DNA of 64,000 bases, from the NCBI GenBank assembly GCA_002050465.1, contig MWYX01000061.1, forward strand, positions 459 through 64,458, written 5' to 3'. This document shows, piece after piece, positions 60,151 through 62,100 of this stretch (position 1 is its first letter; each line of letters begins with the position of its first letter). The translations under genes and the position numbers were made by a program. Under the pieces are notes generated by a model, which ran no database searches, had not been told where the DNA came from, and worked only from the letters and a program-made list of their open reading frames with translations. Origin of the DNA: Chitinophagales bacterium 65-1 (GTDB lineage Bacteria; Bacteroidota; Bacteroidia; Chitinophagales; Chitinophagaceae).

Positions 60151-61443
60151 ATGTTACAGGTTGCATTTATTCGTAATAATCCGGGGCTGGTTAAAGAAAG
60201 ATTAGCGATCAGATATTTTGAAGAACTAAGCCTGGTTGACAGCATTATTGCTTTGGATGATGAAAGAAAAAAATTACAGTTTGAGTTTGAGGAAACACAA
60301 TCTAAAATTAATTCCGCTTCAAAAGAGATAGGGCAATTAATGGCTAAAGGTGAGAAGGTTGCTGCTGAAAAAAATAAAGAGCATGTGACAGCATTAAAGC
60401 TTTCTATCCAACCAATAAATATTAAACTGGCTGAAACAGAAAAAATGCTGCACGATGAACTTATCCAATTACCTAACCTACCCCATACATCTGTACCTGC
60501 AGGAAAAACTCCTGAAGAAAATGTTATTGTAAGAGAAGGCGGTAACAAACCAAAATTATTTTCCGGAGCTATTGCACATTGGGACCTGGCTAAAAAATAT
60601 GACCTGATAAATTTTGAATCAGGTAATAAGATTACCGGAAGCGGTTTCCCTGTTTATAAGAATAAAGGAGCAAAGCTGCAAAGAGCGTTGATACAATATT
60701 TCCTGGATTATAATACAGCGGCAGGCTATACAGAATATCAGCCACCGCTTATGGTTAATGAAGCAAGTGCTTATGGTACAGGGCAGTTACCTGATAAAGA
60801 AGGCCAGATGTATAATATACCCGTTGATGGATTTTATATGATCCCAACTTCAGAGGTTCCGCTGACCAATATTTACCGCAATGATATTGTGAAAGAAAAT
60901 GATCTCCCTATAAAAATGACTGCTTATACCCCATGCTTTAGAAGAGAATCGGGTAGCTATGGAAAAGATGTTCGTGGATTGAACCGGTTGCATCAATTTG
61001 ATAAAGTAGAAATTGTTCAATTAGTTCATCCTGAAATAAGCTATGGGGTTTTGGAAGAGATGGTTGCGCATGTTGAAAAACTTTTACAATCGTTGGAACT
61101 ACCCTACCGCATTTTAAAATTATGTGGCGGCGATATGGGATTCACTTCTGCACTCACTTATGATTTTGAAGTGTATAGCGCTGCACAGCAAAAATGGCTG
61201 GAAGTTAGCTCTGTGAGCAACTTTGAAAGTTTTCAAACCCACCGGATGAAAATACGTTTTAAAGATACAAATGGTAAAACCTTGCCTGCCGGCAGGCAGG
61301 TGCAATTGCTGCATTCACTTAATGGTTCTTCTTTGCCATTGCCAAGAATTGTTGCAGCTCTTTTAGAGAATAATCAAACAGAAAAAAATATTAAACTGCC
61401 TAAAGTGCTGCATAAATACTTTGGAGAAAAGGTGATTGATTAA
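60151..61443 (+). CDS. serS: Serine-tRNA ligase with a 7-aa palindrome-derived insertion
   Basis: IPTSEVPL, FRRESG, RLHQFDKVE, EVSSVSN, HSLNGS. Confidence 0.97.
   Translation: MLQVAFIRNNPGLVKERLAIRYFEELSLVDSIIALDDERKKLQFEFEETQSKINSASKEIGQLMAKGEKVAAEKNKEHVTALKLSIQPINIKLAETEKMLHDELIQLPNLPHTSVPAGKTPEENVIVREGGNKPKLFSGAIAHWDLAKKYDLINFESGNKITGSGFPVYKNKGAKLQRALIQYFLDYNTAAGYTEYQPPLMVNEASAYGTGQLPDKEGQMYNIPVDGFYMIPTSEVPLTNIYRNDIVKENDLPIKMTAYTPCFRRESGSYGKDVRGLNRLHQFDKVEIVQLVHPEISYGVLEEMVAHVEKLLQSLELPYRILKLCGGDMGFTSALTYDFEVYSAAQQKWLEVSSVSNFESFQTHRMKIRFKDTNGKTLPAGRQVQLLHSLNGSSLPLPRIVAALLENNQTEKNIKLPKVLHKYFGEKVID
61281..61300. repeat. 20-bp GC-rich palindrome in frame in serS
   Basis: cttgcctgccggcaggcagg; perfect 16-bp palindromic core at 61283-61298; encodes LPAGRQ. 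Confidence 0.8.
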
Positions 61444-61871
61444 TTTGATTTAATGGATTTTAAAAATTGTAAAGGGGTTATAACAGGTAAATGATTTTCT
61501 GCTGTTTTAAAATCCTTAATATTTCTTGTAATAAAGTATTCAATCCTGTCATCTTTAGCTGCAGTATAATATTGAACCGCATCTTCAATATCATCAAATT
61601 TTGATTCATACGCTTTTTTAATAATACTTATATCTGCCTCTAGAATGATAAAGTAATCGAGTAAATATTTTATTGTTCGCCTGCACTTTTCCTTAGAAAT
61701 TAATCTCTGTCCTGTGTACTGAGCATTTATTATAATTGAAGGAGAAGTAAATAATACCGCTTCCTCATTTTCAAATTGTTTAAAAATTGCACGGCTATTT
61801 TCAATGAATTCTTCATGTACAAGAACAACATCCAGTATAATATCAGTATCGATAAATAAATTATTTGACAT
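61440..61871 (-). CDS. PIN domain (VapC-like) toxin
   Basis: FIDTDIILD, DIEDAVQYYTA, ITRNIKDF. Confidence 0.9.
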   Translation of the reverse strand: MSNNLFIDTDIILDVVLVHEEFIENSRAIFKQFENEEAVLFTSPSIIINAQYTGQRLISKEKCRRTIKYLLDYFIILEADISIIKKAYESKFDDIEDAVQYYTAAKDDRIEYFITRNIKDFKTAENHLPVITPLQFLKSIKSN

Positions 61872-62100
61872 ATTTCTTTAAAAGGTATTCTGTTTTGATC
61901 TTCTTCCAGTCAAAGCTTTTAGGAGCTTTGCCAAAAGCACCTACAATTTTATCTATGTCAAGTTTTTCTTTTTGCTTTGTTACCAGCTTTTCAAAATGCT
62001 CTTCCACGATATTAGATACACTGGTTTCTTTTTGCTGTGCATACCTTTTTATCTTTTTTACTTTTTCTTCATCAATACTTAAAGTGAGTTTGGTTTTCAT
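61861..62100 (-). CDS. Ribbon-helix-helix antitoxin (DUF6364-like)
   Basis: MKTKLTLSIDEE..KRYA....SVSNIVE; overlaps the PIN gene start. Confidence 0.85.
   Translation of the reverse strand: MKTKLTLSIDEEKVKKIKRYAQQKETSVSNIVEEHFEKLVTKQKEKLDIDKIVGAFGKAPKSFDWKKIKTEYLLKKYVK

What the first reader, a model, noticed from the sequence alone, without database searches (positions are those of the whole stretch)
61281..61301. 20-bp palindrome inserted in frame in seryl-tRNA synthetase (LPAGRQV)
Seen: cttgcctgccggcaggcagg is a strongly GC-rich palindrome in an AT-rich gene and gives KDTNGKT-LPAGRQV-QLLHSLNGS. Established: SerRS normally has a short turn just before the H[ST]LNGS motif 3. Inference: this is a second, unrelated miniature palindrome family. 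Being palindromic, it encodes nearly the same peptide on both strands (the antisense ORF 61120-61314 also reads LPAGRQ), so it is tolerated in either orientation.
Basis: partly seen in the sequence, partly recalled or inferred. Interest (0 to 1): 0.75.

Follow-up and report, generated by a model that had tools for sequence, protein, structure and literature searches.

The report
Tiny palindrome inserted inside serS
The seryl-tRNA synthetase gene of this soil Chitinophagaceae bacterium has recently gained a 21-base GC-rich palindrome that is read as seven extra amino acids in a floppy surface loop, and it belongs to a tiny repeat found nearly letter for letter in many bacterial phyla and phages, moved by an unknown agent.

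Summary
A 21-bp unit, CCTTGCCTGCCGGCAGGCAGG (window 61280-61300, with a 16-bp perfect palindrome at 61283-61298), sits in frame in serS.

- **Insertion point.** The two closest relatives read GGT AAA ATG CAA/GAG here. The unit therefore went between the A and the TG of one codon, with no target duplication, turning M into T-LPAGRQ-V. A metagenome contig from a relative shows the same empty junction.
- **Structure.** AlphaFold2 puts the added residues in a low-confidence loop just before motif 3.
- **Family.** The genome holds 31 copies and a reversed-genome control holds none. Seventeen copies lie inside recognisable genes, including RlmN, GlmM, IF-2, DnaX, Mfd, the CCA-adding enzyme and an Hsp70 paralogue.
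- **Signs of selection.** Genic copies are nearly all 21 nt and non-genic copies 19-20 nt. Sixteen of the 17 genic copies are read Leu-Pro.
- **Second hit.** Four other species of the genus carry an independent copy five codons upstream in the same SerRS loop.
- **Spread.** The exact 21-mer occurs in at least 120 contigs from many phyla and in 25 viral contigs.
- **Mover.** No mobilising enzyme was found; Y1 transposase genes are not flanked by it.
- **Link to the other repeat.** It is not "unrelated" to the genome's other repeat family, because it nests at one fixed site inside those units.

This scan has found the same element before on other DNA. It works like Rickettsia RPEs and intragenic REPs but is a new, minimal variant.

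The parts
60151..61443 (+). serS, seryl-tRNA synthetase, 430 aa; the host gene and the only SerRS found in the assembly
   Evidence: ORF. Pfam Seryl_tRNA_N plus tRNA-synt_2b. PDB SerRS 2dq3 at E=2.4e-116. The only strong SerRS match in G000.
61280..61300 (.). Inserted 21-bp palindromic element CCTTGCCTGCCGGCAGGCAGG
   Evidence: The closest relatives G041 and G048 read GGT AAA ATG CAA/GAG with no insert. An empty-site contig in metagenome X4 ends at 61279 and continues TGCAATT (record 23). Family member.
61283..61298 (.). Perfect 16-bp palindrome TGCCTGCCGGCAGGCA, centred on GCCGGC
   Evidence: Read directly. As single-stranded DNA it folds into a 6-7 bp stem with a 4-nt loop, -7.3 kcal/mol.
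61279..61302 (+). Codons 377-384 (T-L-P-A-G-R-Q-V), which replace a single ancestral Met codon
   Evidence: Codon arithmetic from the serS start at 60151. Alignments. AlphaFold2 gives pLDDT below 50 for residues 376-382.
61120..61314 (-). Antisense 64-aa open frame that also reads LPAGRQ; a by-product of the palindrome, not a gene
   Evidence: It lies wholly inside serS on the opposite strand.

Best explanation
**Shown.** A 21-nt GC-rich palindromic repeat unit was inserted into serS in the terminal lineage of this species.
- It is a member of a cosmopolitan family with consensus CCTGCCTG(T)CCGG(Y)AGGCAGG.
- It landed between the A and the TG of one codon and made no target-site duplication.
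- The gene stays open because the unit is exactly seven codons, it falls in the turn of the beta-hairpin just before motif 3, and the frame used gives small or flexible residues (LPAGRQ). The enzyme is presumably still functional.

**Inferred.**
- The family behaves as selfish DNA that lands anywhere. Selection then removes copies that shift the frame, hit structured regions or give awkward frames. What survives in genes is 21-nt copies in loops and linkers, read Leu-Pro-x-Gly.
- The unit probably moves as a hairpin in single-stranded DNA, cut and pasted by a structure-specific enzyme supplied in trans, possibly carried by phages. That enzyme has not been identified.

The confidence given is for the shown part plus the selection-filter reading. 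The single-strand, trans-enzyme step alone I put at about 0.4.
For: Insertion state of serS:
- 22 of 26 other same-genus or same-order SerRS genes lack exactly these 7 codons.
- The sister genomes G041 and G048 form a clade with G000 (support 100/99) and are empty at this site.
- An empty-site contig was seen in a metagenome, and filled contigs in 4 metagenomes from 4 studies.

Family:
- 31 copies against 0 in the control.
- 17 copies lie inside genes identified by Pfam.
- Clean 7-aa presence/absence differences among close relatives occur in RlmN, GlmM, an Hsp70 paralogue and the CCA-adding enzyme, which carries 0, 1 or 2 copies.

Selection filter:
- Genic copies are 21 nt in 15 of 17 cases; non-genic copies are 19-20 nt in 12 of 14 (Fisher p=5e-5).
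- 16 of 17 genic copies share one reading frame (p=3e-7).

Location in the protein:
- pLDDT is below 50 for residues 376-382, between strands 369-371 and 388-396. The rest of the model is confident (mean 86).

Mobility and breadth:
- Copy number in 61 genomes of the genus ranges from 0 to 27, with every control at 0.
- 43 of 150 high-quality genomes of the phylum are positive, with up to 94 copies.
- The exact 21-mer occurs in at least 120 contigs of many phyla with unrelated flanks, 48 times in a 0.8-Mb Saccharibacteria MAG, and in 25 viral contigs.

Insertion style:
- No duplication in the resolved cases, and a symmetric flank bias. In G000, 19 of 20 junctions are R^Y. Across phyla, T is almost absent at -1 and A at +1.
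- Nested insertions into other hairpin units and into the element itself.
Against: - No enzyme is tied to the element.
- None of 14 Y1 (IS200/RAYT-type) genes examined in six element-bearing genomes has a CCTGCC hairpin within 1.5 kb.
- Y1 genes occur in 57 of 61 genomes of the genus, whether or not the element is present.
- DUF559 nuclease genes are bracketed by the other (triplex-type) hairpins, not by this one. Their co-occurrence with the element is only moderate and is confounded by relatedness (30/43 against 44/107).
- Function of the modified SerRS is inferred, not measured.
- Absence of a target duplication rests on four or five well-resolved sites.
- The hairpin is not unusually stable for its composition (z = -1.4).
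Confidence: 0.8

Rival explanations
1. It is an ordinary REP/REPIN element mobilised by a cognate RAYT (Y1 HUH transposase) encoded in the same genome.
For: - It is a short GC-rich hairpin, and about half the copies contain GTAGG.
- It inserts without a target duplication, as IS200/IS605-type enzymes do.
- Y1_Tnp genes exist in G000 and in all five distant element-bearing genomes tested.
- Intragenic REPs are documented (PMC3733652).
Against: - The RAYT-like gene at G000:C23 is flanked by a different hairpin, GTTCCGTAGGAAC, and the one at C28 by AACCTTAGTAGAAA.
- No CCTGCC hairpin flanks any of the 14 Y1 genes inspected.
- Y1 genes are near-universal in the genus, including in 31 genomes without the element.
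- There is no unpaired GTAG or CGTC tag at an end.
- More than half the copies are genic, unlike REPs.
Confidence: 0.15
2. The hairpin is a module of the triplex-type (family-1) repeat system, and both are spread by the DUF559 (Vsr-like) nuclease through break-and-repair copying.
For: - The hairpin is nested at one fixed site, ctctaaa^tctccccc, of family-1 units in 6-7 copies here. The same composite occurs in Mucilaginibacter, Sphingobacteriales and a viral contig.
- DUF559 genes in three phyla are bracketed by family-1-type hairpins.
- All 10 genomes of the genus with 7 or more copies have DUF559.
- In the phylum sample, 30 of 43 positive genomes carry DUF559 against 44 of 107 negative ones.
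Against: - Two complete genomes with 5 copies each lack DUF559 (G100, G113).
- No DUF559 was found in the Nitrospirales and Omnitrophota MAGs that carry 20 and 7 copies.
- 21 of 31 element-free genomes of the genus have DUF559.
- Relatedness of the genomes inflates the association.
- No CCTGCC hairpin lies next to a DUF559 gene.
Confidence: 0.15
3. The element is kept because it does something useful, for example as an mRNA hairpin that tunes translation or decay, as a protein-binding DNA site, or as a functional LPxGQAG peptide motif.
For: - The sequence is conserved across phyla.
- The serS copy is retained in four independent metagenomes.
- Some insertions are old enough to be shared and to have diverged, as in the Hsp70 paralogue, GlmM and SerRS site B.
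Against: - The hosts are unrelated cytosolic enzymes, hit at loops and linkers.
- Closest relatives do without the insert.
- Copy number swings from 0 to 94 between related genomes.
- Old copies decay freely; SerRS site B reads PALPVGR, PASPAGK or PALSAGS.
- There is no Rfam match.
Confidence: 0.05
4. It is an assembly or sequencing artefact, or a local accident such as slippage or template switching with no link to a repeat family.
For: Palindromes can be created by template switching, and this genome is a MAG (79.5% complete, 68 contigs).
Against: - The same filled allele is present in contigs of 4 runs from 4 studies.
- There are 31 family copies here and thousands elsewhere, including in cultured isolates.
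- Insertions are in frame and vary among orthologues.
Confidence: 0.01

Closest known systems
Rickettsia palindromic elements (RPE; Ogata et al. 2000, as summarised in PMC10969869)
   Same: Palindromic repeats inserted in frame into many unrelated housekeeping genes. They are translated as extra peptide at positions compatible with the fold, and no transposase is known for them.
   Different: - RPEs are about 100-150 bp, encode 30-50 residues and are confined to Rickettsia.
- This unit is 21 nt (7 residues), has no sequence likeness to RPEs, and occurs nearly identically in many phyla and in phages.
Intragenic REPs of the GTAG- and CGTC-tagged superfamilies (Di Nocera, De Gregorio & Rocco 2013, PMC3733652)
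   Same: - Hairpins of 20-40 bp with stems of 8-9 bp and loops of 4-5 nt.
- Some copies lie inside known genes, often replication and repair genes.
- The CGTC families likewise lack a dedicated transposase.
   Different: - It has no unpaired GTAG or CGTC tag and no CCA tail.
- Its stems do not start with A-T pairs.
- Most copies here are genic, not extragenic.
- The RAYT genes present are flanked by other hairpins.
IS200/IS605-type single-strand 'peel and paste' transposition (established knowledge; mechanistic comparison only)
   Same: The moved DNA is recognised as a hairpin, and insertion leaves no target duplication.
   Different: - There are no distinct left and right ends.
- There is no fixed 4-5-nt target upstream, only a symmetric R^Y bias.
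- There is no adjacent Y1 gene.
Intrastrand-triplex-type hairpin repeats of this same genome
   Same: GC-rich repeats in the same genome, inserted in frame in core enzymes and physically combined with the present hairpin in composite units.
   Different: It has a different sequence and build: a C-rich mirror arm plus a polypyrimidine/polypurine hairpin. It is bracketing partner to DUF559 genes, which the CCTGCC hairpin is not.

Membership tests
Seryl-tRNA synthetase (host gene) | N-terminal coiled-coil domain plus class II core with motif 3 | tested here: met
   Pfam Seryl_tRNA_N (residues 1-111) and tRNA-synt_2b (227-408). PDB SerRS at E=2.4e-116 over the full length. Invariant HxLNGS and the motif-3 Arg are kept.
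Rickettsia palindromic elements (RPE) | Palindromic repeat inserted in frame in protein-coding genes | tested here: met
   17 genic copies and 7-aa gaps in orthologues.
Rickettsia palindromic elements (RPE) | Unit of about 100-150 bp encoding a conserved peptide of 30-50 aa; Rickettsia lineage | tested here: not met
   The unit is 19-21 nt. The host is a Chitinophagaceae bacterium, and the element is found in many phyla.
REP / REPIN with RAYT | Short imperfect palindrome repeated many times per genome | tested here: met
   31 copies in 1.96 Mb, and up to 94 in a relative.
REP / REPIN with RAYT | Unpaired GTAG (or CGTC) tag at one end of the hairpin | tested here: not met
   Flanks are unrelated between copies. 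GTAG occurs only inside the stem-loop of the T-variant.
REP / REPIN with RAYT | A RAYT gene flanked by copies of the same repeat (REPtron) | tested here: not met
   The Y1 genes of G000 are flanked by GTTCCGTAGGAAC or AACCTTAGTAGAAA. None of 14 Y1 loci has a flanking CCTGCC hairpin.
REP / REPIN with RAYT | Predominantly extragenic location | tested here: not met
   17 of 31 copies are inside Pfam-identified genes.
MITE | Terminal inverted repeats around a non-coding core of 70-300 bp, with a target-site duplication | tested here: not met
   The whole unit is 21 bp. No duplication is seen at serS, glmM, rlmN, the Hsp70 paralogue or the family-1 site.
IS200/IS605-like single-strand transposition (works-like claim) | Insertion without target duplication next to a specific short target | tested here: inconclusive
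   The absence of a duplication is met. The target shows only a symmetric R^Y bias. The enzyme is not identified.

The most novel reading that the evidence does not exclude
The CCTGCC...GGCAGG unit is the smallest mobile DNA yet seen: a 20-21-nt hairpin. It spreads between phyla, perhaps on phages. It is inserted without target duplication by an enzyme or repair route not so far linked to transposition, and possibly shared with the DUF559-associated triplex-type repeats. On this reading it is a general, unrecognised source of seven-residue loop insertions in bacterial core proteins.
Probability: 0.35. Interest if true: 0.85.

Novelty: new variant of a known kind. Interest (0 to 1): 0.66.

Why it matters
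- It shows that essential, highly conserved enzymes (SerRS, RlmN, GlmM, IF-2, DnaX) in free-living soil bacteria are being lengthened by ready-made 7-residue cassettes. This is a route of protein loop evolution previously documented mainly in Rickettsia.
- The dense sampling of this genus gives clean empty and filled sites. These define the unit (21 nt), its insertion style (no duplication, R^Y junction) and its turnover (0, 1 or 2 copies among sister species). That is the information needed to design an in vitro or in vivo search for the mover.
- Practically, such inserts can mislead gene callers, alignments and phylogenies, and they mark permissive loops useful for protein engineering.
- The same 21-mer in CPR bacteria, Nitrospirota, Omnitrophota, Bacteroidota and phages points to inter-phylum traffic of a very small genetic parasite.

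Tried and rejected
- **RAYT as the mover.** Searched Y1_Tnp in G000, in five distant element-rich genomes and in 61 genomes of the genus. There was no adjacency and no association.
- **DUF559 as the mover.** DUF559 is bracketed by the other hairpin family, not by this one. Co-occurrence is moderate and not independent of kinship.
- **Known RNA family.** No Rfam match for 60900-61700 at E<=1.
- **Literature search for the sequence itself.** The only hit is an unrelated primer.
- **Hairpin stability as a signal.** The z-score is only -1.4, because any shuffle of this GC-rich 29-mer also folds.
- **RNA evidence.** No RNA holder was listed.
- **Population polymorphism.** The contigs of the 4 runs show no allele of the same strain lacking the 21 nt. 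Only a roughly 90%-identical relative has the empty site. Contigs cannot exclude rare variants.
- **Target duplications.** The direct repeats beside the dnaX and Fe-S-protein copies (CTTGTAG, TTTGTRG) lie in low-complexity linker repeats of the host genes. They could not be shown to be duplications.
- **Earlier-findings look-up by sequence.** It gave nothing.

Full report
**1. The observation**

The window's 3' part holds a 430-codon serS gene at 60151-61443 on the + strand.
- Pfam finds Seryl_tRNA_N and the class II core.
- The best solved relative is Aquifex SerRS, at E=2.4e-116.
- At 61280-61300 the gene reads CCTTGCCTGCCGGCAGGCAGG. The local GC content is only 36-42%.
- The perfect palindrome is the 16-mer TGCCTGCCGGCAGGCA (61283-61298).
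- The 12-mer core CCTGCCGGCAGG is expected 0.02 times in the window and about 0.007 times in the 1.96-Mb genome. It occurs five times, against zero for the backwards control.

**2. It is an insertion, and its borders are exact**

I pulled SerRS genes from 35 relatives.
- All but four lack exactly seven codons here, for example FK-TEGKT-------QLLHSLNGS.
- A SerRS tree puts G000 in a clade with G048 and G041 (support 100/99). Both read GGT AAA ATG CAA/GAG.
- Set against G000's GGT AAA A|CC TTG CCT GCC GGC AGG CAG G|TG CAA, the gain is a 21-nt unit placed between the A and the TG of one Met codon. It makes no target duplication and turns M into T + LPAGRQ + V.
- A short contig of a roughly 90%-identical relative in metagenome X4 ends at 61279 and continues TGCAATT. 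This is the same empty junction (record 23).
- Contigs of four runs from four studies bridge the filled site with 1-6 differences and no gap. The allele is therefore real and widespread in this species.

**3. Where it sits in the protein**

An AlphaFold2 model built on 26 orthologues is confident overall (mean pLDDT 86, pTM 0.83).
- It drops below 50 only at residues 267-269 and 376-382.
- The second stretch is the insert, which lies in the turn between strands 369-371 and 388-396. The latter strand leads into motif 3.
- All invariant SerRS residues are kept.
- No second SerRS was found in the assembly, which is 79.5% complete.

**4. The family in this genome**

A fuzzy search with CCTGCCTGTCCGGTAGGCAGG finds 31 copies against none in the reversed genome. 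This family and one other account for most of the genome's GC-rich hairpins.

Seventeen copies lie well inside genes that Pfam recognises:

| Host gene | Note |
|---|---|
| CCA-adding enzyme | two sites, one of them a tandem pair |
| CYTH protein | |
| RlmN | just before the radical-SAM cysteines |
| 4Fe-4S protein | |
| rhodanese protein | |
| E2 acyltransferase | in the linker |
| DnaX | |
| alpha-2-macroglobulin | |
| GlmM | |
| alpha/beta hydrolase | |
| IF-2 | N-terminal region |
| Mfd | |
| metallo-beta-lactamase-fold protein | |
| Hsp70 paralogue | |
| periplasmic binding protein | |
| SerRS | the copy under study |

Three further copies lie just upstream of likely starts, and the rest are intergenic.

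Signs of a selection filter:
- Genic copies are 21 nt in 15 of 17 cases, and the others are 19-20 nt in 12 of 14 (Fisher p=5e-5).
- 16 of 17 genic copies read the left arm as Leu-Pro, giving LP[ATV]GQAG or LPAGRQ (p=3e-7).
- The alternative frames give Cys, Tyr or Arg-rich peptides, or a TAG stop in the T-variant.

**5. Turnover among close relatives**

| Site | G000 | Relatives |
|---|---|---|
| RlmN | LPTGQAG present | absent from G041 and G048 (about 92% identical) and three others |
| GlmM | present | present in G041; present but interrupted in G048; 7-aa gap in ten others |
| Hsp70 paralogue | present | present in G067 and G040; G018 has the 7-aa gap |
| CCA-adding enzyme, site 2 | two tandem copies | one in G048; none in G041, G018 or G067 |
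| CCA-adding enzyme, site 1 | composite of triplex-type unit plus hairpin | G018 has the triplex-type part without the 7-aa hairpin |

DNA-level comparison again shows clean 21-nt gains at A^T or G^C steps.

**6. A second, independent hit in the same SerRS loop**

- G004, G011, G033 and G067 carry another 21-nt family member directly after IRFK, five codons upstream.
- It is read in a different frame: PALPVGR, PASPAGK, PALSAGS and PALPAGR.
- These genomes fall outside the G000/G041/G048 clade.
- The copies have diverged, so this event is older.
- Two hits in one loop fit a permissive site being found repeatedly. A local insertion preference cannot be excluded.

**7. Relation to the genome's other repeat family**

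- In 6-7 places the CCTGCC hairpin sits at one fixed point of such units: gccccctctaaa|hairpin|tctcccccNNNNggggaga.
- The same composite occurs in Mucilaginibacter, in a Sphingobacteriales MAG and in a viral contig.
- Looser versions occur in Omnitrophota, Saccharibacteria, Nitrospirae and Buchananbacteria contigs.
- The two families are therefore distinct in sequence but not unrelated in their biology.

**8. Breadth**

- In 61 genomes of the genus, the arm-anchored pattern occurs 0-27 times, is present in 30, and every backwards control is 0. Two of the 30 positives, G035 and G045, are unpublished genomes; without them the count is 28 of 59.
- In 150 high-quality genomes of the phylum it occurs in 43, with up to 94 copies.
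They come from Bacteroidota, several CPR lineages, Nitrospirota, Omnitrophota, Chloroflexota, Planctomycetota, a deltaproteobacterium and a Woesearchaeota MAG. Cultured Arenibacter, Maribacter, Psychroserpens, Flagellimonas and Terrimonas isolates are included. The flanks are unrelated.
- A 0.8-Mb Saccharibacteria MAG has 48 copies.
- 72 of 126 of these occurrences lie in open frames of 200 or more codons, mostly as LP[AT]GQAG. High-GC genomes inflate this count.
- 25 IMG/VR viral contigs carry it, some with 4-9 copies and with self-nested copies.

**9. What moves it**

- Insertion leaves no duplication.
- The junctions are biased symmetrically. In G000 the base before the unit is a purine in 20 of 20 strict copies and the base after is a pyrimidine in 19 of 20. 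Across phyla, T before (7/132) and A after (4/132) are nearly absent.
- These features, and nesting inside other hairpins, suggest a structure-specific process on single-stranded DNA. The natural candidate is an HUH Y1 enzyme.
- Against that candidate: G000 has two Y1_Tnp genes, but one is flanked by GTTCCGTAGGAAC pairs and the other by AACCTTAGTAGAAA. None of the 14 Y1 loci in six genomes has a CCTGCC hairpin nearby. Y1 genes occur in 57 of 61 genomes of the genus regardless of the element.
DUF559 (Vsr-like) nuclease genes in G000, a Saccharibacteria MAG and a Magasanikbacteria MAG are bracketed by triplex-type hairpins, so that nuclease is a candidate for family 1.
- For the CCTGCC hairpin, the DUF559 link is only statistical and kin-confounded. 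In the phylum sample it is 30/43 against 44/107. In the genus it is 10/10 genomes with 7 or more copies against 21/31 without any. There are complete counter-examples (G100, G113).
- The mover remains unknown.

**10. Comparison with what is known**

- *RPEs.* In behaviour this is closest to Rickettsia palindromic elements, which insert in frame into unrelated housekeeping genes at fold-compatible positions (PMC10969869).
- *Intragenic REPs.* It also resembles the intragenic REPs of Di Nocera et al. (PMC3733652). Their CGTC families also have 8-9-bp stems and 4-5-nt loops and no dedicated transposase.
- *Differences from both.* It fails the defining features of each: the size and lineage of RPEs, and the end tags, extragenic bias and REPtron of REPs.
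- *MITEs.* It is not a MITE, because it has no core and makes no duplication.
- *Literature.* No paper in the searchable library prints the sequence, and Rfam has no match.
- *Earlier notes.* This scan has met the same element before in other genomes, mainly CPR and Omnitrophota: notes e1-3837645, e1-5216657, e1-886135, e1-1014744, e1-998465, e1-1009158 and e1-4690943. Those are unchecked AI notes, but their core claims match what I measured independently here.

What this locus adds:
- a densely sampled genus that fixes the unit's borders;
- turnover of 0, 1 or 2 copies among sister species;
- the length contrast between genic and non-genic copies;
- a double hit in one SerRS loop;
- negative tests of the Y1 hypothesis, and an inconclusive test of the DUF559 hypothesis.

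**11. Verdict**

The element is a new, minimal and cosmopolitan variant of the known kind 'palindromic repeats tolerated inside genes'. How it moves is the open question.

Noticed in passing
G000:C38, locus L264 877-3321 (DUF559 at 1501-1821; hairpins at 1307-1325 and 1880-1898): A DUF559 (Vsr-like nuclease) domain, bracketed by two triplex-type hairpins, lies in frame inside an IcmF-like gene (B12-binding domain, MeaB GTPase, mutase). Across the genus, most DUF559 matches lie in open frames of more than 1000 codons. DUF559 genes in Saccharibacteria and Magasanikbacteria MAGs are bracketed by similar hairpins.
   Followed up: partly
G000:C23:3400-4040 (locus L088 1489-1905): A RAYT-like Y1_Tnp gene (138 aa) next to dnaX is flanked on each side by two GTTCCGTAGGAAC-type hairpins in inverted orientation, a REPtron-like layout. 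Only about 9 such hairpins occur in the genome.
   Followed up: partly
window 61440-62100 (-): Directly downstream of serS, on the opposite strand, there is a toxin-antitoxin-like pair. It consists of a PIN_3 protein (61440-61871) and a DUF6364 protein (61861-62100), overlapping by 11 nt.
   Followed up: partly
G000:C3:34568-36103 (locus L035): The CCA-adding enzyme gene carries a tandem pair of the element (LPAGQAG-LPAGQAG) where G048 has one copy and G041 none. It also carries a 26-residue composite insert (triplex-type unit plus hairpin) that is absent from G041 and G048.
   Followed up: yes
locus L071 (G048 glmM), around 2700-2800: The GlmM copy of the hairpin in G048 is split by about 27 extra bases (NLPSFRQDELFGQLPAR). 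This is possibly a further nested insertion or decay.
   Followed up: no
locus L017 (G004 serS): The SerRS match in G004 starts at residue 64 and has five stop codons within the matched span, with a separate match to residues 1-42 about 70 bp upstream. The gene may be interrupted near its 5' end.
   Followed up: no
loci L148, L195, L173, L132, L119, L202; G000:C12:34940-34990 and C23:2025-2075: In several phyla the hairpin is flanked by short tandem heptamer or octamer repeats such as GAGTCGT, GGTCGTT, GCATCCT, GATTGCG and TTTGTRG. In genes these encode low-complexity linkers.
   Followed up: no
loci L227 and L235 (IMG/VR UViG_3300038551_000082): A viral contig of 58-59% GC carries at least 8 copies, three of them in one 345-codon frame. 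It also has copies inserted inside the loop of another copy, for example GCCTGCCTG|unit|TCCGGTAGGCAG.
   Followed up: partly
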